From Candidatus Puniceispirillum sp. (GTDB lineage Bacteria > Pseudomonadota > Alphaproteobacteria > Caedimonadales > UBA1908), in the NCBI GenBank assembly GCA_013822015.1, contig PNJU01000004.1, positions 28,685 to 92,684 of the forward strand: 64,000 bases of DNA, in the 5' to 3' direction. How positions within the stretch are numbered: position 1 is the stretch's first letter; each line of letters begins with the position of its first letter. This document shows positions 16,045 through 60,932 of the stretch, piece by piece. The notes beneath the pieces were generated by a model that was not told the DNA's origin, ran no database searches, and saw only the letters and a program-made list of their open reading frames with translations. The translations under genes and the position numbers were made by a program.

Positions 16045-16221
16045 ATTTTTCCATAACAAAAAGCACCGGTGGGCGACACTCGCTGACCGGTGAATTAATC
16101 ACAGCACTCTAGGCGGGTCCCGCGCTAAATGTCAAGACGTTTGTGCTTTTGTCTTAAAAAGACTGGGGAATTTCGTAAAAACACGTTATGATGGGGGCCA
16201 AATGGCCCAGGGAGATTCTTC

Positions 16222-20350: not shown

Positions 20351-22252
20351 TTAAAATCCGAACATGTGATCCATACCAAGGCGACCCTGTGCGTCTTGAA
20401 GACCATGATAACCAAACAGGCGGCAGGTGGTGTCTCTGATAATGATATAAGACCGCTCACCAGCTTTTTCGATGTCTTTTTGAGAGAAAATATCGCTCAC
20501 GCGCCAAAGACGTGAACCTCCACAGGGGATGTGAAGTTCCTCGGTGGCCACGCATTCACCTTGGGCATTATGCAGCATAAGGGAGGTCTGTGACAAGGGA
20601 TGCCAAGTTACCGAGGCCGGATAGATGAGATGACAGAAGGCCTGTGTGCCTTGGGGTCCCGTTGGTAGGAAAAGGCGCGTGGTCAGACCAGGAGGCGCCC
20701 CCCGGTAAGAATGGGGCTGGGTTTTATAGGTCATGGCCGTATTATAAATATGGGATCCAAAGGATGTTTCCGTTTGGTGATGGGCATTTTCATAGCGGAA
20801 AAGGGCATGCAGCCATCCGTCTGCCTCATCTCCCGCCTCAAAGTCATAGACGAGCTCCATGTGGCCATAACCTTTACCAGCCTGATCAGGCACTTCCTTC
20901 AAAAGATCGTTAACCATCAGGGCGCTTCTATGGTTTCTGGGCAGATTGCCAAAACGGTATTCGCCCATCTCATGGCCATCGGCGCCGTAAATCAAAAGGG
21001 TCACGGGCAAGTGGTTTTGATATCTGGCCATGGGGGTGGGCAGCACATGGCTCTCCCAGGTGTCCCAGGGCAAAAGGGGTGCGGGCAAAATGAACCCTTT
21101 TCCAAAAAGGGGCGCAAGGGTTTTGATTTTTGGATCGGGGGCGAGGTTTGTGCGCTCCACATTGGCGTGGGCAATGCGCCTCAGGCCTTTCCTGACCACT
21201 TCATAGCGGGGCCTTACGAAATACTTACCTGCCATAATTTCAAGTTGGGCTGGCCAGTGGAGATCTGGGAAAAGATCCTTCACATGGACGGCCAGGGTCC
21301 CAAAGGGGGGGACTTCCCTATCCACGGCGCGCGCTTCCTTCTCACGGCCCATGGGGCACAGGGTCACGGCGCCTGCTGGAATAGGGCAGGGGTGGCTATT
21401 TTGAATCCACAAAATCACGTCTTCTGCTTGGGTAGGGGCAGGAAGGCCCGCGTAATAATCGGCCGGCCAGGCGTTGGCGTCATGGGTGCAGGACAAAACC
21501 GTGCCATCATCGCTATAAATATCAAGGCCGTACTTCACGATATCGTGACCAGCTGCACCCACAATGTGGATGAAAAGTTGTCCACAAAAATCACCAAGAC
21601 CAAAACGCTCCTTCACCACAGCGCTGTCAATGACGAAGGAAGACCCGGCCGCACCCAGTGATTCCTCCCAGGTCGCCAGGTGTTCGCCACGCTCGTCCAA
21701 AAGATGACACCAAGCGTGGGCGGGTTTGCCACTGTAAGATGACCAATAGTTGGCGGTCATAAGACGCGTGTGGAGACCCTTTTCCTCGCGCAAGAAGGCA
21801 AAGTTGGTTGCAAAGTTGAGGGGATCAAGGTAGCTGCGCTGGTTTGTGAGCATCTCTTGGGGCAGGCGCAGCTCCTTCAGTGAAATGACCTCCACATTCT
21901 TGCCCAAAAGTGTTTGAAGGTGGGACACAAAAAGGTCTTCCTCAAAGGACAAAATGAACAAAACTTTTGTGGCGGGGTCAAGCTGTGAAATGGGCTTAGT
22001 TGTGTAACCCAAGCGCTGCAGCCCCACGTCCTCAAAGCGTTGTACGTAGATATGGGAGAAAGGAACGTCTTTTAGGGGGTGAATTTCACAAAAGGGCTCA
22101 AGCCACCCTTGGGGATCATAAAGGGCAATATGCTCACATGCTTTGAGCCTTTGAATGAGGGCGTGGGCCCCCTTGGCAACAAGGGGGTGCCCAATGGCTT
22201 TGAAAAAACTGTGCCCGCCCTTGAGGTGATCAAAGGTTTCAATACGAAGCAT
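20351..22252 (-). CDS. Conserved-looking hypothetical protein, 633 aa, with an internal triplicated domain
   Basis: Long uninterrupted ORF. The ATG at 22252 (MLRIETF) avoids overlap with the upstream gene. No family recognised; a repeated G-E-x-hydrophobic-A/G-T/E segment occurs three times. Confidence 0.7.
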   Translation of the reverse strand: MLRIETFDHLKGGHSFFKAIGHPLVAKGAHALIQRLKACEHIALYDPQGWLEPFCEIHPLKDVPFSHIYVQRFEDVGLQRLGYTTKPISQLDPATKVLFILSFEEDLFVSHLQTLLGKNVEVISLKELRLPQEMLTNQRSYLDPLNFATNFAFLREEKGLHTRLMTANYWSSYSGKPAHAWCHLLDERGEHLATWEESLGAAGSSFVIDSAVVKERFGLGDFCGQLFIHIVGAAGHDIVKYGLDIYSDDGTVLSCTHDANAWPADYYAGLPAPTQAEDVILWIQNSHPCPIPAGAVTLCPMGREKEARAVDREVPPFGTLAVHVKDLFPDLHWPAQLEIMAGKYFVRPRYEVVRKGLRRIAHANVERTNLAPDPKIKTLAPLFGKGFILPAPLLPWDTWESHVLPTPMARYQNHLPVTLLIYGADGHEMGEYRFGNLPRNHRSALMVNDLLKEVPDQAGKGYGHMELVYDFEAGDEADGWLHALFRYENAHHQTETSFGSHIYNTAMTYKTQPHSYRGAPPGLTTRLFLPTGPQGTQAFCHLIYPASVTWHPLSQTSLMLHNAQGECVATEELHIPCGGSRLWRVSDIFSQKDIEKAGERSYIIIRDTTCRLFGYHGLQDAQGRLGMDHMFGF

Positions 22253-22275
22253 GGTGCGTGTCCTTCTCGAAAATA

Positions 22276-22851
22276 TTAAACGCCCTTCACGACGCGCATG
22301 ATGCGTGTCCACAAGGAAACGGGTTCAGGTGTTTTGCCTTGAACATAGGCCTCGATGGTGTCCAGGACCTCATGGTGATCCCACTCGGTGCCACCCGTGA
22401 GGCTTCCAATTAAGTACCCTTTACGGTCAAGGACATAGGTGGTGGGTAGACCCTGGAGTTTTTCAGATGACGTGCTCCCTTCGCCACTTGTTTCAAAGAA
22501 AAGGCGGAAACGGTCTTTGTCGAAGCCGGAGACAAGTTTTTTAGCGGTCTCTTTGTGGATGGGGTCCTTACACACGGCCACAACTACGACGTCTTTTGCG
22601 TCAAAGGACTTGGCTAGATTATCCAGGGAGGGCATCTCGCGCACACAAGGCGGGCACCAAGTGGCCCAAAAGTTCAAAACCACAATGCGTCCCTTAAAGT
22701 CGCTGATTTTGTGATTTTTGCCTTCTGCGTCTTCCACCACAAAATCAATGATGCGGTCGGCAGGATGGGTCTTGTAACGCAAAAGTTGGGCGTTTGCTTG
22801 GGTGCATATGAGGGTGATGGCGAGTACTAAAGGGGCAAAGGTGCGACTCAT
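22276..22851 (-). CDS. TlpA/ResA-family periplasmic thiol:disulfide oxidoreductase
   Basis: Signal peptide plus thioredoxin fold with FWATWCPPCVREMP. ATG at 22851. Confidence 0.85.
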   Translation of the reverse strand: MSRTFAPLVLAITLICTQANAQLLRYKTHPADRIIDFVVEDAEGKNHKISDFKGRIVVLNFWATWCPPCVREMPSLDNLAKSFDAKDVVVVAVCKDPIHKETAKKLVSGFDKDRFRLFFETSGEGSTSSEKLQGLPTTYVLDRKGYLIGSLTGGTEWDHHEVLDTIEAYVQGKTPEPVSLWTRIMRVVKGV

Positions 22852-29226: not shown

Positions 29227-29291
29227 AGATATCTGCGCAAAACTGTAAACTCTTGCGTGCCCTTCCTAGAACGTGTATACCATGCGGAAAG

Positions 29292-29366
29292 GGGCGCATA
29301 GCTCAGCGGGAGAGCGCTACGTTGACATCGTAGAGGTCGCTGGTTCAATCCCAGTTGCGCCCACCA
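29292..29366 (+). tRNA. tRNA-Val (anticodon GAC)
   Basis: Manual cloverleaf: acceptor GGGCGCA/TGCGCCC, anticodon arm CTACG-TTGACAT-CGTAG, T-loop TTCAATC, encoded CCA. Confidence 0.95.
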
Positions 29367-29389
29367 TTTTTCCACTCGGGAGACAGTCC

Positions 29390-29848
29390 ATGTTCTTGCG
29401 TCTTGTGTGTGTGTGCATGCTCAGTTTTACGAGCGTTTTTGCAAGTTCCCCGTCCGTATCCCTTGAAAAACCCTGGGCCAGGCCCGCAGACATCGGCTAC
29501 AACAGCGCCGTTTACATGGCTCTTGAAAATACAGGAAACGCGTCTGTCGTGATTGTGGGCGCCACCTGTGAAACTTGTAAAAAGGTCGAACTCCACGAGA
29601 CGATAGAGGTAGAGGGCGTGTCCAAAATGATCCCCATGGACGCCGCGCATCCTTGGACGGTGGCGCCCGGTGAGGTGCTCCGCCTTGCGCCTGGGGGCAA
29701 GCATGTGATGCTCATTGGTCTCACCCGCGTACTGGAAAACGGGGAAGAGGTTCTCGTGACACTGCTCACCAAGGATGGGGAAAAGATCGAGGTACGGGCA
29801 ATGATTCAAAAAGGCCCCGGTACTTGCGGGAGTTGCTGCGGCTCGTAA
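29390..29848 (+). CDS. Periplasmic copper chaperone PCu(A)C (DUF461)
   Basis: Signal peptide plus the H-x10/12-M ... M-x21-H-x-M pattern (LHETIEVEGVSKMIPM...GGKHVM). The track ORF starting at 29273 reads through the tRNA. Confidence 0.8.
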   Translation: MFLRLVCVCMLSFTSVFASSPSVSLEKPWARPADIGYNSAVYMALENTGNASVVIVGATCETCKKVELHETIEVEGVSKMIPMDAAHPWTVAPGEVLRLAPGGKHVMLIGLTRVLENGEEVLVTLLTKDGEKIEVRAMIQKGPGTCGSCCGS

Positions 29849-33844: not shown

Positions 33845-35218
33845 TCAGTTGTCTTCGCGCAGGCGTCCCGATTTCTTAAGTTCATTCTCGGCCATGTTGC
33901 GGATGTCGCTGGCGCGCAGGCGTGCTTCTTTGGATTTGAGGGACTTAAGCGCGCGTCCCGCCTGATCATAGGCTGCTTGGTACTGCTCCACGCACACGGC
34001 TTCTTCCGCCAAGCACAGGGCCGCCATGGCGGTGTTGTGTTGTTTTCCGTAAGCCACCGCCAAAAGGCGCCAGGCAAAGGGATTATCGGGCTCCAGGAGC
34101 AAAGACCTCTCAAGGTGCTTCTGGGCTTCTGGGTAATGATTGGATGCCCCTTCTAACATCGCTTGGGCGCATAGCATGCGCAGGAGTGCGTCCTTGGGGC
34201 GCAGGGACACGGCCTGGCCATAGGCATGGACGGCTTGCTCGATGTGCCCACTCTCAAAGGCAATTTGCCCCTCCAGATCCCAGTAAGCTGCGTCCCTTGG
34301 GTGGGCACTTGTTAGCGTCCTGGCAAGGCCGAGGGCTTCACTGCCGCGCCCGATTAAGAAGAGGGCAGTTGCGCGCATAAAACGCCCTTTATCGGAATCA
34401 TCCCGGGCGTAGGTGCGCAGGGTTGTCTCGGGCGAATCAATAAAAGCATGGAGCTTCATGCGCATGCGCTCAAAATTCTCCTCAAAGCTGGGGGGGAGTG
34501 CACCGTCTGGGTGGTCGATGGTTGCGCGCTCAAGCAGGGCCACACGGTCCTGGGACAAGGGGTGAGAGCGGCTGTAGGGGTCTTGTTGCGCGCTTGACAA
34601 AAGCTCCTGGCTGGCCAGCACCTTCATGAAGGACTGCAGCCCTTCCACAGGCCAATGGAGGCGCGTGAGGAAGCGCACAGCTGCCTGGTCCGCAGACGCC
34701 TCTTGGCCCCGGGAGTAATGCATCATGGCGTTTTCAGCCATTTGCATGCCGCCCGTCAGGATTCCGGCGCCCGCATCCCCGCCACCAGCGGCAATGGCGG
34801 CCCCACCCAAAAGGGCCGTGGCCATGGCAATGGCCGTGGCTTTTTTCATCATTTCCTCACGGCGCGCGATGTGCCCGGCGGCAATGTGACCCGTTTCGTG
34901 GGCCAAAACACCTATGAGCTCGCGGGCATCCTTCGCGCGCAAGATAAGGCCGGTGTTTACAAAGATGCTGTAGCGGGTGGTTGCAAAGGCGTTGAGTTCT
35001 GGATCCAGGATCACGTAAAGGTGCATTTTTTCCGGATCAAGGCCAGCTGCTTCAAAAAGGGGAGCGGCAAAATCATGGAGGGCGGCCTCCACCTGGCTGT
35101 CACGGATGAGGGAGCCGGTTTTCAGGCCTCTGGCATGTGTTGGGGCGGCACCCCAAAGGAGCACCGCCGCCAAAAAGGCACTTGTGTAACGCGCTAGTCG
35201 AGCAACCTTTTCCACCAT
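33845..35218 (-). CDS. M48-family metallopeptidase with TPR repeats (BepA/LoiP-like)
   Basis: 457 aa with a signal peptide, HETGHIAAGH (HExxH), and C-terminal TPR-like repeats. Confidence 0.85.
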   Translation of the reverse strand: MVEKVARLARYTSAFLAAVLLWGAAPTHARGLKTGSLIRDSQVEAALHDFAAPLFEAAGLDPEKMHLYVILDPELNAFATTRYSIFVNTGLILRAKDARELIGVLAHETGHIAAGHIARREEMMKKATAIAMATALLGGAAIAAGGGDAGAGILTGGMQMAENAMMHYSRGQEASADQAAVRFLTRLHWPVEGLQSFMKVLASQELLSSAQQDPYSRSHPLSQDRVALLERATIDHPDGALPPSFEENFERMRMKLHAFIDSPETTLRTYARDDSDKGRFMRATALFLIGRGSEALGLARTLTSAHPRDAAYWDLEGQIAFESGHIEQAVHAYGQAVSLRPKDALLRMLCAQAMLEGASNHYPEAQKHLERSLLLEPDNPFAWRLLAVAYGKQHNTAMAALCLAEEAVCVEQYQAAYDQAGRALKSLKSKEARLRASDIRNMAENELKKSGRLREDN

Positions 35219-37422
35219 GTTTTTTCCTTATCTTGTTCTTCTCTTGCCTGGGCGTCTTCATGGAAGACAGGAGAGTTGGGGTCAAAGGAGGCCGCAATGG
35301 TCGTGCTTGGGAAAGCAGGCCCTGAATCTTGGGAGGCCAAAACCGAGGACTGAGTCGTCTCTTGTCCCTCGGACGCCGCCCCACCTTGGTCAGGTGTATC
35401 TTGGCGGTTCTTATCCCTGTTACGACGATTGGCACGCCTGCGCATACGACGCTTGCGGGACTCAGAAGGCGACTGAGAGGCGTCTGTCCCCTCCTGTGTC
35501 ACCTGAGGGGTGTCAGCACCTTCTGCCTCAACTTTCTTCTGCGCAGGCTCAGCGCGTGGAGCGTCTTCGCGGGGTGTGTCTTGGCGTTCGCGGGGTTCTT
35601 TGTCACCTGGGCCCTTGCGATCACGCCTGCGTTTGTTACCGCGCTCTGGGCGAGGCTCCTTAGGCTCACGGGGCTGTGGCTTGGCTTCTTTAGGCTCCTC
35701 ACGTTCTTCACGATCTTCTCGCTTTGGTGGTGCCGGCTCTTCCTTTGGCGCAACCTCAAGGGCGCCACTAGGGGAGGGCACCAATACCGAGACAGAGCAC
35801 GCATGGGACTGGGGTCCTGCCTCTTCAAAGACAACGCGAATGCCGTGGCGTGTCTCCACATCCAAAAGGGCGTGGCGCTTTTGGTTCATGACATAAAGAA
35901 GCACCTCGTGGGGGAGCTTCAATGCCAGGGTGGCGCCCGGATTGCGTAGTCCCGCGTCCTCCAAAATGCGCAGGGCGCTCAGTGCCAGAGACTCCGTTGA
36001 GCGAATGTAGCCCGTTGCCTGACAGTGTGGGCAAGGGTGGGCGCTTGTCTCCAAAAGGCTTGGCGCCAGGCGTTGCCTCGACATTTCCATCAGACCAAAG
36101 GGGCTGATGCGCCCCATTTGAATACGGGCCCGGTCATCACGGAACGCTTCGCGCAGGCGCCTTTCCACGGCCGCAACGTTGCGTGGTTCGTCCATATCGA
36201 TGAAGTCGATGACGATGAGGCCCGCCAAATCACGCAGGCGTACCTGTCTTGCAATTTCCGTGGCAGCCTCAAGGTTGGTCTTGGTGGCTGTTTCCTCAAT
36301 GTGGCGCTCACGCGTGGCGCGCCCAGAGTTAATATCAATGGATACAAGAGCTTCCGTTGGGTGAAGCACAATGGATCCACCCGATGGGAGACGCACCTCC
36401 GCCTCATACATATCATCAATTTGCTTTTCCACGCCGTATTCATGGAAGAGAAGGGCGCGATCGCTCTTATAGCGCTGAACACGCTTGCTGTGGCTGGGCA
36501 TCAAGGACTTCATGAAATCCTTTGCGGTCTTATAGCCCTCCTCGCCGCTGACAAGCACTTGCTCAACGTCCTTGGAGTAAAGGTCGCGCACGGCGCGCTT
36601 GACAATGTCGTCTTCGCTGTGGACCAGGCTTGGGGCAATGGAGGTAATGGTCTTCTCGCGAATGCTGTCCCACAGGCGCATGAGATATTGACCGTCACGC
36701 TTGAGCTCAGCGCGCGTGCGCTCACGCCCTGCGGTGCGGATAATGAGCCCCATGCCATCGGGCACATTGAAAGCCTCAAGGATCTGGCGCAGCCGCTTGC
36801 GATCGGCTGGATTCGAGATCTTGCGGGAAATCCCACCACTGCGGGGAGAGTTGGGCATGAGCACACAGTAACGACCAGCCAAAGACAGATAAGTCGTGAG
36901 CGCCGCACCCTTGTTGCCACGTTCTTCCTTCACCACTTGCACAAGGATGATTTGGTTTTTCTGGACCACTTCCTGGATTTTATAGCGGCGGTGCAAAGAG
37001 GGGCGTTTGACGGTATCTTCTTCCTCATCGTCAGATGGGGGCAGATCTCCGCCAAGGGATGACACACCTTCGTCATCGGAAGGCGCTGCGTGTGCGGCCT
37101 TGTCCTCATCGTCCTCGTCAAGGACATCGGACGGGGCGGCAAGCTCAGCTTTTAAAGCTTCGCGGTCCGCAACGGGAATACGAAAGTAATCGGGATGGAT
37201 TTCACCAAAGGCCAAAAAGCCGTGGCGCCCCCCGCCATAATCCACGAATGCCGCCTGGAGGGACGGCTCAACGCGCATGATTTTCGCGAGGTAAATATTA
37301 CCCTTAACGGTTTCCTTTGTGGAGCTCTTGAATTCATAATCAACAAGTAGCCCCTTCTCATCAAGCAACGCAACCCGTGTTTCTTCGGGATGCACCGCAT
37401 CGATTAACATTTTCTTTGACAT
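35194..37422 (-). CDS. rne: Ribonuclease E
   Basis: 742 aa with an N-terminal S1/catalytic domain (MLIDAVHPEETRVALLD...) and a low-complexity Arg/Glu/Pro-rich C-terminal half. Confidence 0.93.
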   Translation of the reverse strand: MSKKMLIDAVHPEETRVALLDEKGLLVDYEFKSSTKETVKGNIYLAKIMRVEPSLQAAFVDYGGGRHGFLAFGEIHPDYFRIPVADREALKAELAAPSDVLDEDDEDKAAHAAPSDDEGVSSLGGDLPPSDDEEEDTVKRPSLHRRYKIQEVVQKNQIILVQVVKEERGNKGAALTTYLSLAGRYCVLMPNSPRSGGISRKISNPADRKRLRQILEAFNVPDGMGLIIRTAGRERTRAELKRDGQYLMRLWDSIREKTITSIAPSLVHSEDDIVKRAVRDLYSKDVEQVLVSGEEGYKTAKDFMKSLMPSHSKRVQRYKSDRALLFHEYGVEKQIDDMYEAEVRLPSGGSIVLHPTEALVSIDINSGRATRERHIEETATKTNLEAATEIARQVRLRDLAGLIVIDFIDMDEPRNVAAVERRLREAFRDDRARIQMGRISPFGLMEMSRQRLAPSLLETSAHPCPHCQATGYIRSTESLALSALRILEDAGLRNPGATLALKLPHEVLLYVMNQKRHALLDVETRHGIRVVFEEAGPQSHACSVSVLVPSPSGALEVAPKEEPAPPKREDREEREEPKEAKPQPREPKEPRPERGNKRRRDRKGPGDKEPRERQDTPREDAPRAEPAQKKVEAEGADTPQVTQEGTDASQSPSESRKRRMRRRANRRNRDKNRQDTPDQGGAASEGQETTQSSVLASQDSGPAFPSTTIAASFDPNSPVFHEDAQAREEQDKEKTWWKRLLD

Positions 37423-37784: not shown

Positions 37785-38831
37785 TTAAGCGATATCGCTG
37801 TTGAAAATGTGAAGACTGACCTGGTCATCATCATGGGTAAAGGGGTGCACCTTGAGCCATGAGGTCCACCCAAGGGTTGTCTTGGCCCCTATTTTTGTTT
37901 TTTCCACGTCGCTGGCGCGCATGACAAGGCGGATATCAAAGCTGTGCTCGGTCCCAAGATAAAAGCGGATCAGCTCACACAGGGCCGTGAAGGCTCCTCC
38001 ACCGTCGGGCAGAAATGCCCGAAAACGTTTGTCATCCAAAGGACCCAGCTGCACACTGATGCGACTACGTGTGTCCCAGAACTTATCCCCGATGGAGGCG
38101 TCTTCTCCCAGGGTTTGAAAACGTCCCGCGCGCCCAATGCAGGTTTGCTCTTCCTCGGGTATGCTAAGCCACTGTCCACAAAAGGGCGTGACACTCACGG
38201 GGACATTAAAATAGTGGGAGAGGAAAATCTCAAGACCAGATGTTGAGCGCGGAGATTTCCACAAAAGGCCCGCGTAGTACAAAAGACCGCGATCGGGCAC
38301 GCTCATGCGATCTCTAAAAGCGTCCCCCCCAATACCCAAAAATGAAAAAAGAATCTGGGCAAAGGCCGTTTTATCAGGGGGGTCCGTTGCAAGACCTACC
38401 CAGTATTTTTTACGGATACGGTGAAATATGGATAAAAGGCGATGGTTGAAGATGTCGAGAAAGTCGCGAAAAGCTGTGTCGCCTGAGCGTGCGCGCTCCA
38501 TGAGAAGCTCAGAAAAAGGCATGGGCAGGGGGCCGTTCGGGCCCGCAAGTCCTAAAAAGTTGATACTCATCTGACAGGGGTATTGGCGGTCCTTGCTTAA
38601 AGGAGGTGTGAGGGAAAAAAGGTCGCTGGGAGGATAGGAGTGGGACACGCGTGCGCTGATGGATAAGGCCTCATTCTCGGGAACAGCATCTCGCCCAAGC
38701 TCTGTCGCCTTAGGAAAGGCAAGCTCGACCAGCTTCACCGCCTGGTGAAATTCAAAATAATAACTGGTCGCAAACAGCTCCTCAATTACACAAGGACGCG
38801 GTTTCCGGCTGTGGGCTTCCATGTTTTCCAC
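37785..38831 (-). CDS. tssG: Type VI secretion system baseplate subunit TssG (ImpH/VasB)
   Basis: 348 aa with a TssG-like N-terminus (FEFHQAVKLVE...VPENEALSISARVSHSYPPSD). Overlaps the tssF 3-prime end, as in canonical clusters. Confidence 0.85.
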   Translation of the reverse strand: MENMEAHSRKPRPCVIEELFATSYYFEFHQAVKLVELAFPKATELGRDAVPENEALSISARVSHSYPPSDLFSLTPPLSKDRQYPCQMSINFLGLAGPNGPLPMPFSELLMERARSGDTAFRDFLDIFNHRLLSIFHRIRKKYWVGLATDPPDKTAFAQILFSFLGIGGDAFRDRMSVPDRGLLYYAGLLWKSPRSTSGLEIFLSHYFNVPVSVTPFCGQWLSIPEEEQTCIGRAGRFQTLGEDASIGDKFWDTRSRISVQLGPLDDKRFRAFLPDGGGAFTALCELIRFYLGTEHSFDIRLVMRASDVEKTKIGAKTTLGWTSWLKVHPFTHDDDQVSLHIFNSDIA

Positions 38832-40639
38832 GTTCCTTTATAACGGTTATTAAGCACTTCCAACTGGGTAAAGGTATTTACCGAGGCAAAAAGGGAGAAG
38901 AAATGATTCAAAACAGAAGCAAAAACAAAAGCACCTATGTCGTGATAATCTTCCTCACCAAAGGTCAGGGTAATCTTAGTGCCTTGGGCAAATCCGCGCC
39001 ATGCGTCCACCCCAAAGCGTCGTGTGACAAGTGTGGTCGACATATCTGTAATGGCATCAAGCTCAGGAATTGTGCGCTCACGCTCAATGTTTGCATAAAG
39101 GCGAATGACCTCCTTAAGGGCGCGCAGGGCCCCCTCTCCCCCTGAAAGGGCAAGATGGTTTAGGCTGAGTTGCGAAATGAGGCGCCACTGGGTCTGACCG
39201 TCCCTGGGGGGATAAATTTGCTTTGTGGGGCGATCGAGGACAAAGATCCGTGTGACGGGAATTTTATCCTCTGCGTGCAGCTGTCCGCCCGACGGAATTT
39301 GCTCAGCGAGATTTCTGTTGGTGCACAGGCTCTTGGCAAAAATTGTGTGGGTCACGGGTTTGAGGGGCGTAAAATCAAAATCCACAAAGGACAGGTGCAT
39401 GTCTGTCCCTGTCATGCCCTGACGGTCTGTTTCCGTGCGCCGGGCGTGCCAGAAAGATTTGTGCCCTTTTTCCGATAGCTGGTGGTTATAGCTAAAGTAA
39501 GGCATGAATTTCTCGACCTCTTTTTCTTGATCAATGGCTGCACTGACCTCAAGAATAGAGTGAATTTCTGTGGTTTTTTCGGCCTTAAGATCGGGGATCA
39601 AACGGTATTCAACACTGCGATGATCCAGGCGAATGGGCTCAGTGATCTTATGGAAAAGATTAATGATGGGGGCGCAGTGAAGCAAGAAGTTCATGGCGCT
39701 GACGTCGCGGACATTTAAGGGAACTTCCTCACAAAAAGCAAAGTAAAGATCAATTTCCGACGCGTCTTGGGACAAAGATGGGTGGGCAACGTCCATGAAG
39801 AAGAACTTCTCAGGATAATGGAAGTATTCCATGAGGAGTCTATAACCTGGGTGCGCATGCTCTGGGAATGGGAGAATTGCTTCGTCTTGCTCAAAACCAA
39901 CGGGGCGTACACTTGAGGCGGGGATGTTTTGTACAAGGGGCCCAGGCGTAGGCACGGCCCCTTGAAGGACGACCTTCACGTCTTGTGCGAAAATGCCCTC
40001 ATAAAGCGCATTTTTCACCAAAGGGTTGCCCGCAATATGAAAACGCAGCTTTGTCAAACCCATGTCTTTAAAGGTGCCCGTGTGGGATTTAAGGCGAATA
40101 CGCAAGGTGCGTGAGGACCCAAGAGCCGCAGCCAAGGCGGTATCGAGGGTGCTTGTTTCCAATAGGGTGGCGTCTAGAACACTCACGGGCGCAAGTTCAA
40201 GGTCATAGCCCGTGCGAAAGGAACACACCTCACCCGTTGCTGCGCGGGAGAACACCTTTGCGTGCTTGGGCACCGTCAGGGGAGAGGTAATCTTGCCCTG
40301 ATTTTCAGGAAGCTCAAACTGTGCAATGGCAAAGGAGGGGATTGGTGCGACAAATTGTGGGTACAGGACTCCCAATAGCGCTTCCGTAAAACGCGGATAC
40401 TGATCGTCCGTATCATGCTGAAGTCTTGCTGTAAGATAGGCAAAGGACTCCAGAAGCCGCTCCACATGGGGATCGCTTGATTCAGCTGCCCCCACATCAA
40501 GACGCCTTGCGATTTTTGGGTACTCTTGGGCAAAGCGAGCGCCCGAGCGTCGCAAATAGGTGAGCTCCCGTTGGTAATAATCAAAGAAAGGGTCTAATTT
40601 TTGCACCGTTTCCTCCCTACTTTTCCAATAGTTTGCCAT
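38786..40639 (-). CDS. tssF: Type VI secretion system baseplate subunit TssF (ImpG/VasA)
   Basis: 617 aa. N-terminus is YYQRELTYLRRSGARFAQEYPKIARRL...DPHVERLLESFAYLTARLQ, colinear with TssF as I recall it. Confidence 0.9.
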   Translation of the reverse strand: MANYWKSREETVQKLDPFFDYYQRELTYLRRSGARFAQEYPKIARRLDVGAAESSDPHVERLLESFAYLTARLQHDTDDQYPRFTEALLGVLYPQFVAPIPSFAIAQFELPENQGKITSPLTVPKHAKVFSRAATGEVCSFRTGYDLELAPVSVLDATLLETSTLDTALAAALGSSRTLRIRLKSHTGTFKDMGLTKLRFHIAGNPLVKNALYEGIFAQDVKVVLQGAVPTPGPLVQNIPASSVRPVGFEQDEAILPFPEHAHPGYRLLMEYFHYPEKFFFMDVAHPSLSQDASEIDLYFAFCEEVPLNVRDVSAMNFLLHCAPIINLFHKITEPIRLDHRSVEYRLIPDLKAEKTTEIHSILEVSAAIDQEKEVEKFMPYFSYNHQLSEKGHKSFWHARRTETDRQGMTGTDMHLSFVDFDFTPLKPVTHTIFAKSLCTNRNLAEQIPSGGQLHAEDKIPVTRIFVLDRPTKQIYPPRDGQTQWRLISQLSLNHLALSGGEGALRALKEVIRLYANIERERTIPELDAITDMSTTLVTRRFGVDAWRGFAQGTKITLTFGEEDYHDIGAFVFASVLNHFFSLFASVNTFTQLEVLNNRYKGTWKTWKPTAGNRVLV

Positions 40640-40736: not shown

Positions 40737-41798
40737 TTAGAAGCTGGACCGTGAAAGAAAGTCCACGGCTGTTTGGAGGTCCCAAGTTTTGTCCTCAAGG
40801 GACTGTGTTAAAAGAGATTCGAGTCCCATACATACGCTGTGTTTAGACACTTTTTCACCAATGCGGAAAGAGGCATAAGCCTTGTCTTCCAGAAAATCTG
40901 TCACAATGCGCCTTTGGTCATCCCACAGGGCAAGATGCAGCTTTTGCGCAGGGGTGATGTGGCCAAGAATGAGGTTTTGAGCCAGAAAAAGACTTGCCTG
41001 CCTTGCTTTGTTTCTGTTGTCGCAATAAATGACGCCTAAGGAAAAGGTGAAGCCGTCTCTTCCCGCCTGAAATTCAATGCCATCCCTTGAAAAACAGTGA
41101 CTTCGTTCAAAGGATATCCCCGCGTCTTCAAGGCATTTACGTGTGTAGAGTATATTGGCTTGAGCATAGGGGCGATTTGTGAGGCCTACAATTTGGTAAC
41201 CGGCTTCACGAAGTCGCGTGAGGTGGTTTTGGATACCATCTTCCATGGTTTCGCGTGTTTCAAAAAATAAGGGGTTTTTAAAATGATCCACATGGGGGCT
41301 GCCCAATAAGCGGCTGATATTGTTTAATTCAGACGTCTCAAGGGCAGGTATTTTGAAAGTCTTTCCTTTTTGGCGTGCAAGCTCTTCAAATCTCCCATAC
41401 CCACTTTGGGAGACGGCTTTTTCCACGAGATTTCTATCCTGCAAGAATCTTGTTTTCCAAAAACGCCCCGCCCCTTCAAAAAAGAGGGTTTCATCTAAGT
41501 CGACAAAAAGCACCTTCAAGTCTGCGTCTTCGGGCGTATGCGCGAGCGTCACATTTGTTGCGTCTTCCACAGAAAATGCAACGGACACGCGCGCGGGTGA
41601 GGCGTGGGTCCCGCGATCCGTTGCAACAGCACTTAAGATGTTATCACAAATAGATTTCTTCAGTGAGGGATCGATGTAGCCCAGGATCGTTCTTTGATAA
41701 TTTCTCAAATGCAGTCGCTCTTCTTCCTCCACGCCGCTTGTGCCATAAATAGCCGTATGCCCAAAGGTCATTAGGAGAGTGATTATGAGTGCTCTCAT
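40737..41798 (-). CDS. Exported HAD-superfamily-like hydrolase (DUF2608-like), hypothetical
   Basis: 353 aa with a signal peptide, HAD motif I (FVDLDETLF), motif II-like VGLTNR, and a late WDDQ acidic motif. Lies 97 nt upstream of tssF on the same strand. Confidence 0.6.
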   Translation of the reverse strand: MRALIITLLMTFGHTAIYGTSGVEEEERLHLRNYQRTILGYIDPSLKKSICDNILSAVATDRGTHASPARVSVAFSVEDATNVTLAHTPEDADLKVLFVDLDETLFFEGAGRFWKTRFLQDRNLVEKAVSQSGYGRFEELARQKGKTFKIPALETSELNNISRLLGSPHVDHFKNPLFFETRETMEDGIQNHLTRLREAGYQIVGLTNRPYAQANILYTRKCLEDAGISFERSHCFSRDGIEFQAGRDGFTFSLGVIYCDNRNKARQASLFLAQNLILGHITPAQKLHLALWDDQRRIVTDFLEDKAYASFRIGEKVSKHSVCMGLESLLTQSLEDKTWDLQTAVDFLSRSSF

Positions 41799-41951: not shown

Positions 41952-41976
41952 TGCTGTGAGAACACGGGAGGAAGTC

Positions 41977-43101
41977 ATGATAAGAAACATTATACTTCAA
42001 TTGTCTATTTTGTGTGTAACAGGACCTTTGTGGGCAAGTGCCATGGGCGGAGACACTTTACCTACTGATATAGAAGAGCCCAGTGATCACGCTTTACAGC
42101 GCACAGTTGCCGACGTTTTGGCGCGCGATCCCCATGCGGATGTCAGCGACCTTATGCCGCGTGAGGTATCTTCTCAAGGAGTGTCTTCTTCCGTTCCCAT
42201 TGTCGTGACCTTTCAAACCACCGTAAGCGATGAGGAGTTCGCCAGAGAGCTTGATCGTCAACTGAATATGGAGCCGGCTCGTGACGCGCTGGACGAGAGT
42301 GACGCGACCCTTGCGCGGGCGCTTCAAGAGCTTGAGCCGCCCACAGTATTGTCTCCCCTGGTCACACCAGCGGCTGCGCATGTAAGTTCACAAGAGCCCC
42401 AGAGTGATGAGGTGCTGGCCAGGCATCTTGAGGGCACCTTAAACGGGGAACCAAGTGGTGATACACAAGAAGAGGGTGATGCGGCCCTTGCGCGCGCGCT
42501 TCAAGAACTAGAGGCGCCGCTCATGCTAGAGATGCGCTTAGAGGAGGGCGACAAAGCGCCCTACGCAGCCATGCGCCGTGATTTTTTTGCCATTCAACAC
42601 GGTCAGGACGTCCATGCCATGACGCGGGCTTTTGCAAAGGCCCATTACGGATTCCTTAAAAGCATTGAAGAGAAGTATTTTGGTTACACAAAGGATTTGG
42701 ACGCGCTACGCATCGCACATGGGCGTGATCTGTTTCTTGAGGACTGTAAAACAGATGCAAAAGCTGAGCATTTGAGTTCCGATGCCTTTAAAACAAAAAC
42801 CGCTCTCATGATGGGGCTCCTTGAGGGGAAAAAGGGTTTGTGGATGCCAGGGGCGCAGGACGTGGACGGGGAAACGGGTCTGTCTCTTCGTGAAGTCTTC
42901 GCCCGGGTTTATCTTTTTGCCCTACGGCGCGATGACGCGCAAGCGGCAGCCTTCTTTGCGCGTCACGGGGAGACGCGCCCACATTTAGAGAATTTTGGAT
43001 TTTTCTGCGACAAGCTCGCTGAAAACGTGAGCGAAGGTGGCGGATGCCACGCGGGCATCACCGGGCGTTTGGTGTACACTTTTGCCTACTTTTTAACATA
43101 G
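41977..43101 (+). CDS. Hypothetical exported protein with a tandem 59-aa repeat carrying MIU/UIM-like helices
   Basis: 374 aa from the ATG at 41977, with a signal/TM segment ILQLSILCVTGPLWASA. There are two 177-bp repeats. No family is recognised for the C-terminal domain. Confidence 0.65.
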   Translation: MIRNIILQLSILCVTGPLWASAMGGDTLPTDIEEPSDHALQRTVADVLARDPHADVSDLMPREVSSQGVSSSVPIVVTFQTTVSDEEFARELDRQLNMEPARDALDESDATLARALQELEPPTVLSPLVTPAAAHVSSQEPQSDEVLARHLEGTLNGEPSGDTQEEGDAALARALQELEAPLMLEMRLEEGDKAPYAAMRRDFFAIQHGQDVHAMTRAFAKAHYGFLKSIEEKYFGYTKDLDALRIAHGRDLFLEDCKTDAKAEHLSSDAFKTKTALMMGLLEGKKGLWMPGAQDVDGETGLSLREVFARVYLFALRRDDAQAAAFFARHGETRPHLENFGFFCDKLAENVSEGGGCHAGITGRLVYTFAYFLT

Positions 43102-58067: not shown

Positions 58068-58099
58068 AGGCGCGCCGCAACCTCTATTGCAGCGCGCCT
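58068..58099. terminator. GC-rich hairpin between convergent uvrA and the 58098 gene
   Basis: GGCGCGC (58069-58075) pairs with GCGCGCC (58092-58098). No clean T-run. A near-identical element lies at 59588-59618. Confidence 0.4.
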
Positions 58100-59324
58100 A
58101 TAAATTTGGGTTACTGATTTTTTCTTGAGGAATGACCATGATCACAAGGGCCGCGTTCACAAGCCTATTGCTTAAGAAGCTGAGGTTGGGCGCGATATTC
58201 ACACAGGATTTGTTGCGTGCGGTGTAGGGATAAATGCCCCCATAAAGAGGCACATTGGACCAAATGCCACCGCGCCGGCCATCATCTTCGCGCAAATATG
58301 TCTCGACGTTTTCTGGGACAGCGTCAAACAGAGGCCTGGGGTCAAGCATTGACACCGTTTGGTCGCCAGGATGCGTATGGGTAAAGGTGCTTAAGATGAC
58401 GCGCTTGATGTGCCCACACCCAGACAAAAGGTCCATGGCCTGGGCTTCTTCATCTGCTGCTAGAACTGGAAGCTGCAGGGTCTCGAGGCGGGTAAGCTTT
58501 GGCAAGATTTCTTTGAGTGTCTCAAGGAGGGAACAGGGCGCGCCCCTTTTCGTGAAATAAGAGCCGTCCCTGCTGATAGCCAGGGAGCGCAGATTTTGAA
58601 AGGCGCCAATGGCTTTGAGGTGCTCTCCTTTGACCTGTGGGGAGTAAGGCAAATCAGGCTCCCAAGCAATATCTTGAGTCACAATATGGTGCGCGTCCTC
58701 AATGCCTTCTAAAGATGCACACAAAGATGTCACAAGGAGTGCATAGGGTTTAAGACAGGGATTGCATTCTTTGAAGAAACAGTTCCACCTGAAAAATGCA
58801 AAATCTTCAAGTTGTTGGGGGAGAGCGTCCGGGTAGGCCGTTACAAAGGTGTGAGAGAACTGCCCTGGTTCTTGGGACCCAAGATTTTGCATCCACGTGT
58901 CCCACTGAGCCTCAAACGCGGCACGCAGGACATTTTGCGCCTTGGAAAACTGATAAATTTTTTGATGTAACTCGGGCGAGATATCGTCCGGCGTCATAAG
59001 CTGTAAGCTCTCTTTTTCTCTGTCACCTACGCAATCATCACTTTTTCTATCTGCAAGCCATGCGCGCGTATGATCCAAAAGCGCTTCATGGGACATGTCC
59101 CCGAAGGAGCCAGAAGACTTGAAAATGCCCTCGAGGGCCTCCTCCCATGACTGTGCGCCTGGAGCGTATTTGCTCACAAAGTCCAGGGTGAACTTGTGAG
59201 CCGCCATGGTGCGAACGGACCCGTATTCTTTGTCCTGGGGTATTTCATAGACGTCCTTGGAGGAGCCGTGACAAGGCGCGGAAAGCAGAAATGGTCCAAC
59301 AAATAGAAAGCGCAATTTTTTCAT
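58098..59324 (-). CDS. Hypothetical exported protein, paralog A (LRR-like C-terminal segment)
   Basis: 408 aa from the ATG at 59324 (MKKLRFLFVGPFLLSAPCHG signal peptide). Colinear with the next gene. Confidence 0.7.
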   Translation of the reverse strand: MKKLRFLFVGPFLLSAPCHGSSKDVYEIPQDKEYGSVRTMAAHKFTLDFVSKYAPGAQSWEEALEGIFKSSGSFGDMSHEALLDHTRAWLADRKSDDCVGDREKESLQLMTPDDISPELHQKIYQFSKAQNVLRAAFEAQWDTWMQNLGSQEPGQFSHTFVTAYPDALPQQLEDFAFFRWNCFFKECNPCLKPYALLVTSLCASLEGIEDAHHIVTQDIAWEPDLPYSPQVKGEHLKAIGAFQNLRSLAISRDGSYFTKRGAPCSLLETLKEILPKLTRLETLQLPVLAADEEAQAMDLLSGCGHIKRVILSTFTHTHPGDQTVSMLDPRPLFDAVPENVETYLREDDGRRGGIWSNVPLYGGIYPYTARNKSCVNIAPNLSFLSNRLVNAALVIMVIPQEKISNPNL

Positions 59325-59587
59325 AGGTTTTTCTCCACATTTTCTGATGTTTGCCAAATTTATCTCTGGCGCATAAATATAAGCAAAAAGCATGCCAGTC
59401 ATTTTAATTATCGACAAGTATTTGTTTTTTTGGGTGATATTAAGATTTTCTTGCTTAAGTGCTTATTTTATTTCTTATTATAGGTGCAAGAGAGGAGTAA
59501 TCGTTGCGCAACAGGGGACTGTTTCTCCGGCGGCGGTACAGTAAGCATTTCGCTAGAAATGTGGATAGATTCGGTTCTATGGAAAGA

Positions 59588-59638: not shown

Positions 59639-60835
59639 TTATTGTTGTTCAATGACCAAATCAAGAAGGGCGCTGTTCACGCGCCAGTCACTGAGAATGT
59701 CGAGGTGAGGGGCCACAGGCACGTAAGATTTTGTGTGGGGCGCGTAAGGATAGACGCCTCCACTCTTTGGTGCTACGGACCATGCGCCACGGTGCAATGT
59801 GCCTTCTTCGCGAAGGTACGGCGCCGCACCTTTTGGCAGGGCGTCAAACAGGACTTCCGGATCAAGGGTTTCCTGTGCGCCAGGAAGATCCTCCATAAAG
59901 CGGCTTAGAATCACCTGTTTCAAATGGCCGCACACGGACAAGAGGTCTTTTGCTTGATCTTCTTCCCACACACCAAGGACGGGAAGCTGAAGGGTTTCAA
60001 GGTTGCGCAGGTGCGGCAAAATTTCCTTCAAGGTTTCAAGAAGGGGCCAGGGCTGTACCTCTTTTGTGAAGTAAGATGGCTCCCTGACGAGAAGGAGTGT
60101 ACGCAGGTCTTGAAGAGCCCTCATTTCATGAAGATGCTCAACTTTCAGCTGGGAGATATAAGGCAGACCCGTTTGGGTCGCGATATCTTGCCGGACGATA
60201 TGGCGCGCTGCTTCTAAACCTTCCAAGGACATACATAGAGGCGCACCAATAAGCACATGGGGGGTGAGGGTAGGCTCCCACTCCCTGGTGAGGGCTGGCA
60301 TCACATAAAATGAAAAATCCTCAAATTTGTTGGGCAAAGCCTCGGGGTTGGCCAACAAGAAGGCCGCACAGAAGGCACCCGGCTCTTGTGGGCCAAGATG
60401 TTGCCTCCACGCATCCCACTGCGCTTCAAAGGCTGCACGCATGGTATTTTGCGCATTGGAAAACCTGTAAATTCTGCGCTGAAGCTCTGGTGAGATGTCA
60501 CGCACCGTTAAACCGGGCAGCTGATTCTTTTGCAGGAGACCGATGGCGGGATCTGTCGCTCTCTCTTCAAGCCACCCGCGCGCATAGTCCTCAAGATCCT
60601 CTTGGAGTAGTGATTTTTTTGGCGGGTGTGCGTCAAAGATTTTTTCTAAGGCGTCCTCCCATGTCTGGGCATATGCGGCGTGTTTTCTGACAAAATCCAG
60701 CACAAACTTGTGGGCAGTCCTGACCCGCAGGGGGGTGTATTCTTTGTCTTGTGCTGCGTCTGCGATTTCACCCAACGATCCATGGGACGGCGTTAAAAGG
60801 AAAAATGGTAATATTAATAGAAGCAGTTTTTTCAT
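59639..60835 (-). CDS. Hypothetical exported protein, paralog B (LRR-like C-terminal segment)
   Basis: 398 aa from the ATG at 60835 (MKKLLLLILPFFLLTPSHG signal peptide). The 521-aa track ORF is an over-extension into the upstream gene. Confidence 0.7.
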   Translation of the reverse strand: MKKLLLLILPFFLLTPSHGSLGEIADAAQDKEYTPLRVRTAHKFVLDFVRKHAAYAQTWEDALEKIFDAHPPKKSLLQEDLEDYARGWLEERATDPAIGLLQKNQLPGLTVRDISPELQRRIYRFSNAQNTMRAAFEAQWDAWRQHLGPQEPGAFCAAFLLANPEALPNKFEDFSFYVMPALTREWEPTLTPHVLIGAPLCMSLEGLEAARHIVRQDIATQTGLPYISQLKVEHLHEMRALQDLRTLLLVREPSYFTKEVQPWPLLETLKEILPHLRNLETLQLPVLGVWEEDQAKDLLSVCGHLKQVILSRFMEDLPGAQETLDPEVLFDALPKGAAPYLREEGTLHRGAWSVAPKSGGVYPYAPHTKSYVPVAPHLDILSDWRVNSALLDLVIEQQ

Positions 60836-60932
60836 GGTTTCTCTCCTTGTTTGTGAGGAGCCCTTTTTGTTTGGGGCGCGCGTATGAATGCAAGAAGTGG
60901 ACCACTTTGAATGGTAAGGAATAAGCGTTTGC

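What the first reader, a model, noticed from the sequence alone, without database searches (positions are those of the whole stretch)
37785..40639. Intact but orphan T6SS baseplate pair tssF-tssG, wedged between rne and exported hypothetical proteins
**Seen in the sequence**
- Both ORFs are full length (617 and 348 aa) with canonical N-terminal signatures and the usual overlapping junction.
- None of the other 11 core genes (tssA-E, H, J-M, hcp, vgrG) lies within at least 20 kb on either side in this window.
- The gene upstream is a signal-peptide HAD-like protein. Downstream is rne.

**Established knowledge**
- TssF and TssG only make sense as part of a TssEFGK baseplate wedge, and they are normally clustered with tssE and tssK.

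**Inference**, three possibilities
- The T6SS is scattered over several loci.
- The pair is a remnant kept under selection.
- The pair is recruited to a different contractile or baseplate-like apparatus.
Basis: partly seen in the sequence, partly recalled or inferred. Interest (0 to 1): 0.65.

Follow-up and report, generated by a model that had tools for sequence, protein, structure and literature searches.

The report
One piece of a split T6SS
The stand-alone tssF-tssG gene pair is real, intact and under strong selection, but it is almost certainly one module of a type VI secretion system whose genes lie at several separate places in the genome, an arrangement already published for this group of protist-associated alphaproteobacteria, so the finding is ordinary.

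Summary
Two overlapping minus-strand genes encode full-length TssF (38786-40606, 606 aa from a GTG with a strong ribosome-binding site) and TssG (37785-38822, 345 aa). No other T6SS gene lies anywhere in the 64-kb window.

The pair is probably not an orphan. The window is 92.8% identical in DNA to a contig of MAG CAED1 (GTDB order Caedimonadales, family UBA1908). In every Holosporales- or Caedimonadales-like relative I fetched, more than 25 loci, tssF-tssG is likewise a lone pair among housekeeping genes.

Midha et al. [quoted passage not shown] I recovered ten stand-alone [tssB-tssC-divergent hcp] contig records from related uncultured lineages. In Ca. Paracaedibacter symbiosus, a TssC sits on the same scaffold as its lone tssFG.

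dN/dS is 0.04-0.05 for tssF and 0.05-0.11 for tssG, as low as for the adjacent RNase E gene. That rules out a decaying remnant.

I could not show the other T6SS loci in family UBA1908 itself. That gap is the main remaining uncertainty.

Verdict: a new member of a known kind, of low interest.

The parts
38786..40606 (-). tssF, T6SS baseplate wedge subunit. 606 aa from GTG 40606. The longest ORF would start at ATG 40639 and give 617 aa.
   Evidence: PF05947 E=2.9e-185 and TIGR03359 at 614.7 bits. Full-length match to EAEC TssF 6GIY_A, E=1.9e-47. Start inferred from relatives and the ribosome-binding site. dN/dS 0.037-0.048.
40611..40617 (-). Shine-Dalgarno sequence GGGAGGA, 5 nt upstream of the GTG start of tssF
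   Evidence: Read directly from the sequence.
37785..38822 (-). tssG, T6SS baseplate wedge subunit. 345 aa from ATG 38822. Its start overlaps the 3' end of tssF by 37 nt in another frame, which suggests translational coupling (inference).
   Evidence: PF06996 E=1.3e-91 and TIGR03347 at 296 bits. Match to EAEC TssG 6GIY_C, E=3.4e-15. Junction read. The same 37-nt overlap occurs in L001 and L002. dN/dS 0.054-0.105.
35194..37422 (-). rne (RNase E/G family), the downstream housekeeping neighbour. Not part of the T6SS. Listed as the boundary and used as the control for selection.
   Evidence: PF10150 E=5e-99. The same neighbour occurs in L001 and L005, and in L003/L027 after an inserted RND pump pair.
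40737..41798 (-). Upstream neighbour: a 353-aa lineage-specific protein that appears to carry a signal peptide and has a DxDxT motif. Not part of the T6SS module.
   Evidence: No Pfam family reaches threshold. Conserved only in L005 and replaced by other genes in L001, L003, L004 and L027.

Best explanation
The pair is the [tssG-tssF] module of a dispersed type VI secretion system.

The organism is an uncultured alphaproteobacterium of GTDB order Caedimonadales, family UBA1908, and a sister species of the wastewater (EBPR) MAG CAED1. In this group and its relatives the ancestral T6SS cluster was broken up long ago. [quoted passage not shown]

By homology with the solved E. coli structure, TssF and TssG made from this locus would form the TssF2-TssG core of each baseplate wedge. 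That core would bind TssK and TssE encoded elsewhere and assemble around VgrG, and the TssBC sheath and Hcp tube would polymerise on the resulting baseplate.

Shown here:
- the identity and intactness of both genes;
- their isolation within the window;
- conservation of the isolated pair across the whole clade;
- strong purifying selection;
- stand-alone sheath/tube modules in related lineages.

Inferred, not shown: the other modules exist in this particular genome, and the system fires.
For: 1. Identity: equivalog-level matches and full-length alignment to the solved TssF and TssG.

2. Taxonomy: 92.8% nucleotide identity and collinear gene order with CAED1 contig JAIUNT010000004.1. CAED1 is GCA_020161545.1, o__Caedimonadales; f__UBA1908 (PMC9723799).

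3. The lone pair is the rule in this group. It appears in L001, L003, L004, L005 and L027 (the family), and in Ca. Caedibacter acanthamoebae, two Caedibacter MAGs, Paracaedibacter symbiosus, Nucleicultricaceae, Odyssella, Finniella and others. Azospirillum, Burkholderia and Chromobacterium loci show canonical clusters instead.

4. [quoted passage not shown] 5. Independent recovery of the other module: the contig records L084-L089 and L091-L094 carry tssB-tssC plus a 186-187-aa ORF among housekeeping genes. L090 and L095 break off at or inside that ORF. L084 and L091 also carry a gp25/TssE gene. The 186-aa ORF is a divergent Hcp (hhalign 97.4%, E=1.3e-11).

6. Same-genome evidence in a relative: P. 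symbiosus TssC WP_032112695.1 lies on the same 1,684,892-bp scaffold as its lone tssFG.

7. Selection: tssF dN/dS is 0.037 (dS 0.25) and 0.048. tssG is 0.054-0.109. For comparison, rne is 0.042-0.090 and the M48 protease 0.049-0.108.
Against: I could not demonstrate tssB, C, K, L, M, A or E, hcp or vgrG in any genome of family UBA1908.
- The source genome is not in the gene-position index.
- The TssC hits whose contigs I looked up come from other lineages. Their tetranucleotide correlation with the window is 0.57-0.75 for the four lineages compared with it directly, against 0.92-0.98 within the family. The fifth, L092, has 29% GC and its best matches are outside the family.
- None of the GenBank accessions returned for the 28 TssC clusters I queried (many returned none) falls in the series of the family's MAGs.
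- The metagenome scan with the Holosporales-type Hcp returned only five loci, none from the family.

The family's TssF is only about 50% identical to its nearest outgroups, so the family sits on a long branch. Loss of the other modules somewhere in it cannot be formally excluded.

No ClpV is listed for the published relatives, so even there the system is 'reduced' and its activity is untested.
Confidence: 0.85

Rival explanations
1. True orphan kept for another job. Family UBA1908 has lost the rest of the T6SS, and TssF-TssG are retained under selection as part of a different structure or for an unrelated role.
For: No other T6SS gene could be tied to any UBA1908-family genome with the tools available. 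Purifying selection shows the pair does something.
Against: The identical lone-pair arrangement occurs in sister lineages that do have the remaining modules (PMC8163844; P. symbiosus). The proteins are canonical over their full length, with no domain loss or gain. No sheath, tube or other baseplate genes of phage or eCIS type lie nearby. I know of no TssFG function outside a T6SS (background knowledge).
Confidence: 0.05
2. Decaying remnant. The pair is left over from a T6SS that is being lost and merely has not yet accumulated disabling mutations.
For: These genomes are reduced (CAED1 is 1.88 Mb), and gene loss is common in such lineages (background knowledge).
Against: Both reading frames are intact in all family members, which are down to 65% (TssF) and 56% (TssG) amino-acid identity to the window. 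dN/dS is 0.04-0.11, as low as for the RNase E gene next door. In the window-L001 comparison TssF is more conserved than RNase E (88.7% against 84.4%). Neutral decay over that divergence would have destroyed the frames.
Confidence: 0.03
3. Spare duplicate. A complete canonical T6SS cluster with its own tssF/G exists elsewhere in the genome, and this pair is an extra copy.
For: Many bacteria carry several T6SS clusters (background knowledge), and I could not read the rest of this genome.
Against: The genome scan returned exactly one tssF locus in each of the four UBA1908-family genomes it found, and one in each related symbiont genome. The published Bodocaedibacter inventory lists a single tssF/tssG. 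A redundant copy would not usually be as constrained as RNase E.
Confidence: 0.05

Closest known systems
Dispersed T6SS of Bodocaedibacteraceae, Paracaedibacteraceae and Caedimonadaceae (Midha et al. 2021, ISME J, PMC8163844), e.g. Ca. Bodocaedibacter vickermanii CPBP_00125/00126 (TssF/TssG)
   Same: A two-gene tssF-tssG locus standing alone among housekeeping genes, in a related order of alphaproteobacteria. The genes overlap and are canonical TssF and TssG. The nearest named relative by TssF is Ca. Caedibacter acanthamoebae, at 50% identity.
   Different: The window belongs to an uncharacterised family (GTDB UBA1908) with higher GC (53% against roughly 38-43% in the relatives' loci fetched here, and 40.6% for Bodocaedibacter). 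It is known only from wastewater, marine and other metagenomes. The remaining modules have not been shown for this family. The flanking genes differ (rne and an M48 protease here).
Canonical clustered T6SSi, e.g. E. coli EAEC Sci-1, whose TssKFGE baseplate wedge is solved (PDB 6GIY, 6GJ1, 6N38)
   Same: The same two protein families over their full length. The presumed role is the same: a TssF2-TssG wedge core binding TssK, TssE and VgrG.
   Different: In canonical systems tssE, F, G and K lie in one cluster of 13 or more genes, as in the Azospirillum, Burkholderia and Chromobacterium loci. Here the pair is tens of kilobases or more from any other T6SS gene. Identity to EAEC TssF and TssG is low (E=1.9e-47 and 3.4e-15).
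Scattered rvh type IV secretion system of Rickettsiales (comparison from background knowledge)
   Same: A multi-subunit secretion machine whose genes are split into several islets around a reduced genome of an intracellular alphaproteobacterium.
   Different: It is a different machine (T4SS, not T6SS) in a different order. This is an analogy only and no homology is implied.

Membership tests
TssF (PF05947 / TIGR03359) | Full-length match above the curated cutoff | tested here: met
   617.8 bits against a cutoff of 25, model positions 4-608 of 608. TIGR03359 equivalog 614.7 bits against a cutoff of 260.3.
TssF (PF05947 / TIGR03359) | Sequence homology to an experimentally solved TssF across all domains | tested here: met
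   phmmer against the PDB: 6giy_A, E=1.9e-47, query residues 8-598 against chain residues 6-579. No structure prediction was run.
TssG (PF06996 / TIGR03347) | Full-length match above the curated cutoff, encoded immediately after tssF | tested here: met
   307.5 bits against a cutoff of 24.6, model positions 4-304 of 304. TIGR03347 296.3 bits against a cutoff of 143.3. 37-nt overlap with tssF. 6giy_C, E=3.4e-15.
Dispersed Holosporales/Caedimonadales-type T6SS (Midha et al. 2021) | tssG-tssF forms its own locus with no other core gene adjacent | tested here: met
   Only tssF and tssG in 64 kb. The same holds in more than 25 related loci.
Dispersed Holosporales/Caedimonadales-type T6SS (Midha et al. 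2021) | The host organism belongs to the same lineage | tested here: met
   92.8% nucleotide identity and collinear with CAED1, which GTDB places in o__Caedimonadales; f__UBA1908. In the TssF tree the family is sister to Ca. Caedibacter acanthamoebae. The published statement names Caedimonadaceae, not UBA1908.
Dispersed Holosporales/Caedimonadales-type T6SS (Midha et al. 2021) | [quoted passage not shown] | tested here: inconclusive
   Stand-alone tssB-tssC-hcp loci were found in related lineages, and TssC was found on the same scaffold as the lone tssFG in P. symbiosus. None could be assigned to a UBA1908-family genome.
Complete functional T6SS (13 core components) | All of tssA-M, hcp and vgrG present, and the system secretes | not testable with these tools
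   This needs the whole genome and an experiment. Published relatives list no ClpV/TssH, and their systems are called 'reduced but potentially functional'.
Phage-like or eCIS baseplate (alternative home for the pair) | Neighbouring sheath, tube, gp25, Baseplate_J or spike genes of phage or eCIS type | tested here: not met
   No such Pfam families were found in the window, and my sheath, tube, gp25 and VgrG HMMs gave no hits.

The most novel reading that the evidence does not exclude
In family UBA1908 the TssF-TssG wedge core has been kept under housekeeping-level constraint while the sheath, tube and membrane complex were lost. That would mean the two proteins have a function independent of a contractile machine. 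No such function has been described (background knowledge).
Probability: 0.04. Interest if true: 0.7.

Novelty: new member of a known kind. Interest (0 to 1): 0.15.

Why it matters
It matters little beyond annotation. The practical lesson is that T6SS detectors requiring co-localised core genes will miss these bacteria or call their system 'incomplete', and that an isolated tssFG pair in a Holosporales- or Caedimonadales-like genome should not be read as an orphan.

The result extends the published split architecture to an uncharacterised family (UBA1908) found in wastewater, marine and other metagenomes. It also shows that the split predates the divergence of several families, because the lone pairs form large clades in the TssF tree. 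The tight constraint on tssF and tssG suggests the dispersed system is in use, which bears on how these presumed protist symbionts interact with their hosts.

Tried and rejected
1. Exact-sequence look-ups of the window's TssF (both candidate starts) and RpoD found nothing, so the source genome is not in the gene-position index.

2. I looked for a clustered close relative to supply seeds for other components. P0011 and P0009 turned out to be lone pairs as well.

3. I searched with TssC from L048, the clustered locus nearest to one lone-pair clade, and looked up five promising hits. All are split loci, but from other lineages by GC and tetranucleotide signature.

4. Ranking the TssC hits by GC-linked amino-acid usage did not discriminate between lineages.

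5. I matched GenBank accession series for 28 TssC clusters. None fell in the MBA47..., MCE295... or MFN/MFO series of the family's TssF.

6. The metagenome scan with the Holosporales-type Hcp used very strict patterns and returned only five loci, none from the family. This is uninformative rather than negative.

7. The supplements of the CAED1 paper hold no per-MAG KEGG table.

8. The promoter and terminator scan around the operon gave counts close to the shuffled expectation and nothing usable. Rfam found only two tRNAs and a borderline ffh sRNA hit elsewhere in the window.

9. I did not use the third large protein search. No look-ups remained to verify which lineage its hits would belong to.

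10. I considered whether the recurring neighbours of tssFG in relatives were hidden T6SS parts and rejected the idea. Reading their sequences by eye, without a Pfam scan, they look like an RND pump pair, an MFS transporter, an ATP/ADP translocase, a PotD-like binding protein, YgfZ, an ABC ATPase and alanine racemase.
Full report
**What is in the sequence**

Two overlapping minus-strand ORFs lie at 38786..40639 and 37785..38831.

- The first is a full-length TssF. It matches PF05947 at E=2.9e-185 over model positions 4-608 of 608, and the TIGR03359 equivalog at 614.7 bits.
- The second is a full-length TssG. It matches PF06996 at E=1.3e-91 and TIGR03347 at 296 bits.
- Both align over nearly their whole length to the solved E. 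coli EAEC wedge proteins in 6GIY/6GJ1/6N38.

The likely true starts are slightly downstream of the longest ORFs.

- tssF probably starts at GTG 40606. A GGGAGGA lies 5 nt upstream, and relatives begin at the same 'MQKLDPFF'. That gives 606 aa.
- tssG probably starts at ATG 38822. That gives 345 aa and a 37-nt overlap with tssF, the same as in relatives.

**Is the pair really alone in the window?**

Yes.

- I built a non-overlapping gene map of the 64 kb and ran 52 of its 56 ORFs through Pfam. The four not scanned are 100-362 aa.
- The neighbours are housekeeping genes: tgt, parAB, rho, hemE, pyruvate/2-oxoacid dehydrogenase subunits, trmD, rimM, rpsP, ffh, trxB, dapD, rnhA, dnaG, rpoD, an M48 protease, rne, a class II aldolase, udg, aroK, xerD-like, uvrA and others.
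- Six ORFs have no Pfam family.
Ten representatives were checked against Pfam: nine gave the expected family, and the putative TssJ gave no hit, so that profile is unverified.
- I searched every six-frame ORF of 40 aa or more, which also covers the four unscanned ORFs, and nothing turned up in the window.
- Repeating the search with the Holosporales-type Hcp, TssE, TssB and TssC gave the same result.

**Who is it?**

- A scan of GTDB species genomes with a TssF clade alignment found a 98% identical TssF in 'Proteobacteria bacterium CAED1' (L005).
- It found 73-74% identity in two marine or coastal MAGs (L003, L027) and 65% in UBA1908 (L004).
- The next hits were Ca. Caedibacter acanthamoebae at 50%, then Paracaedibacter, Nucleicultricaceae, Odyssella and Finniella at 43-49%.
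- The window is collinear with the CAED1 contig at 92.8% nucleotide identity, so it comes from a sister species.
- CAED1 is GCA_020161545.1. It is 1.88 Mb, 52.8% GC, and classified by GTDB as o__Caedimonadales; f__UBA1908 (PMC9723799).

**The lone pair is the rule in this group**

- I clustered the ORFs of all fetched loci into families.
- In every member of the window's family, and in every Caedibacter, Paracaedibacter, Odyssella, Finniella and Nucleicultricaceae-like locus, tssF-tssG has no T6SS neighbour within 10 kb.
- Read by eye from their sequences, the recurring neighbours look like transporters and metabolic genes.
- Azospirillum, Burkholderiaceae, Chromobacterium, Acidobacteria and similar loci show canonical clusters.
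- In a TssF neighbour-joining tree the lone pairs form two large clades plus two separate lineages, L029 and L053 (L053 retains tssE beside tssF). Clustered loci occupy the rest of the tree. The break-up is therefore old and inherited.

**The literature already describes this**

- Midha et al. [quoted passage not shown]
- They report that these genes are transcribed in Ca. Bodocaedibacter vickermanii (PMC8163844).
- The supplement lists TssF/G as CPBP_00125/126, TssE as 00258, VgrG as 00353/355, and TssB/TssC/Hcp-like as 00985-987.

**Independent check of the other modules**

- I used TssC from L048, a clustered locus sister to one lone-pair clade, as a seed. The search returned 120 sheath proteins at 68-100% identity, including Finniella inopinata, 'Paracaedibacter sp.' and 'Holosporales bacterium'.
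- I looked up five of them. In each, tssB-tssC stands among housekeeping genes, and ten of the twelve contig records (L084-L089, L091-L094) also carry the whole 186-187-aa ORF that follows. L090 and L095 break off at or inside it.
- A gp25/TssE gene lies nearby in L084 and L091.
- Pfam does not recognise the 186-aa ORF. Profile-profile comparison shows it is a divergent Hcp (97.4%, E=1.3e-11).
- Cluster membership shows that the Ca. Paracaedibacter symbiosus TssC (WP_032112695.1) lies on the same 1,684,892-bp scaffold as its lone tssFG. The Bodocaedibacter TssC is among the hits as well.

**What I could not show**

None of the sheath loci could be assigned to family UBA1908.

- For the four looked-up lineages compared directly with the window, tetranucleotide correlation is 0.57-0.75, against 0.92-0.98 for true family members. 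The fifth, L092, has 29% GC and its best matches lie outside the family. The five loci from the metagenome scan reach 0.76 at most.
- Their GC content is 29-50%.
- None of the GenBank accessions returned falls in the series of the family's MAGs.
- The single metagenome scan returned only five loci.
- The look-up caps are now exhausted.

The presence of the remaining modules in this particular genome is therefore inferred from phylogenetic bracketing and from selection. It has not been observed.

**Selection**

Pairwise Nei-Gojobori estimates against family members:

| Gene | vs L005 | vs L001 | Overall range |
|---|---|---|---|
| tssF | 0.037 (dS 0.25) | 0.048 | n/a (dS saturated) |
| tssG | 0.054 | 0.105 | 0.054-0.109 |
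| rne | 0.042 | 0.090 | 0.042-0.090 |
| M48 protease | 0.049 | 0.090 | 0.049-0.108 |

- Against L001, TssF is more conserved at the protein level than RNase E (88.7% against 84.4%).
- Both frames are intact down to 65% (TssF) and 56% (TssG) amino-acid identity to the window.
- This excludes a decaying remnant and argues against a redundant spare copy.

**Conclusion**

- The best explanation, at about 0.85, is that this is the tssG-tssF module of the dispersed T6SS typical of Caedimonadales, Holosporales and related bacteria, most of them symbionts of protists.
- It encodes the TssF2-TssG wedge core, which would assemble with TssK, TssE and VgrG made from other loci. That mechanism is taken from the EAEC structures by homology.
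- The rivals (true orphan with a new role, decaying remnant, spare duplicate) together get about 0.13.
- This is a new member of a known kind. It extends a published arrangement to an undescribed family, and its interest is low.

Noticed in passing
window 41956-43101 (+): The 381-aa protein next to the locus appears to carry a signal peptide. It has four repeats of D/E-x-x-[LF]-A-R-x-L-x-x-[LE] at residues 92, 116, 151 and 175, for example 'DATLARALQELE' and 'DAALARALQELE'. These resemble the MIU ubiquitin-binding motif (resemblance recalled from memory). It has a weak CCDC50_N hit (E=0.036). It could be a host-targeting effector. A homologue occurs only in CAED1 (L005).
   Followed up: partly
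window 40737-41798 (-): The 353-aa protein upstream of tssF appears to have a signal peptide and carries a 'DLDETLF' (DxDxT) motif. It gives only sub-threshold hits to DUF2608 (E=0.075) and LNS2 (E=0.27). I take both to be HAD-like families from background knowledge. The gene is not conserved next to tssF outside CAED1.
   Followed up: partly
L084 11537-12097, L087 11526-12086, L091 8467-9027, L092 11520-12083: The tube protein of the split T6SS is a 186-aa divergent Hcp that Pfam misses even at E<=5. It is 72-75% identical across lineages whose GC content ranges from 29% to 50%. Standard T6SS detectors would score these systems as lacking Hcp.
   Followed up: yes
L091 5361-6203: A mitochondrial-carrier family gene (PF00153 Mito_carr) sits immediately upstream of tssB on a bacterial metagenome contig. 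This suggests a gene of eukaryotic origin in an intracellular bacterium.
   Followed up: no
proteins P0126, P0134, P0136, P0141, P0185, P0231; P0256: Several hits are 643-650 aa and carry both VipA (TssB) and VipB (TssC) domains. They are either real sheath fusions or merged gene calls. One such cluster includes a sequence from the EukProt transcriptome of the chrysophyte Dinobryon pediforme, which hints at a symbiont in that alga.
   Followed up: no
L006-L008 (about 9.1-9.9 kb) and L084 8505-9275, L087 8502-9257: truA lies directly upstream of tssF in the Ca. Caedibacter acanthamoebae group, and directly upstream (divergently) of tssB in two other lineages. The TruA proteins are 47-49% identical. 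This may be a trace of where the ancestral cluster sat before it was split.
   Followed up: no
L003 12834-17011 and the corresponding region of L027: In the marine relatives, two genes that look by eye like an RND efflux pair (membrane-fusion protein plus a 1032-aa pump) are inserted between tssG and rne. In the window, CAED1 and L001, rne is the next gene after tssG.
   Followed up: partly
L034 (CAYRKI010000001.1) and L056 (CAZITL010000014.1): MAGs labelled 'Thiotrichales' and 'Verrucomicrobiales' carry Holosporales-like lone tssFG loci that group inside the symbiont clades of the TssF tree. The taxonomic labels or the binning are probably wrong.
   Followed up: no
window 29292-29363 (+) and 16058-16092 (-): A tRNA overlaps the 5' end of the longest ORF for the PCuAC copper chaperone (29273-29848), so that gene must start further downstream. 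A borderline Rfam 'ffh sRNA' hit (35.1 bits against a gathering score of 35) lies just upstream of ffh.
   Followed up: no
window 20351-22312 (-), 58098-59417 (-), 59639-61204 (-), 62298-63401 (-): Four sizeable ORFs (653, 439, 521 and 367 aa) have no Pfam family even at permissive thresholds. They may be lineage-specific proteins of this symbiont-like genome.
   Followed up: partly
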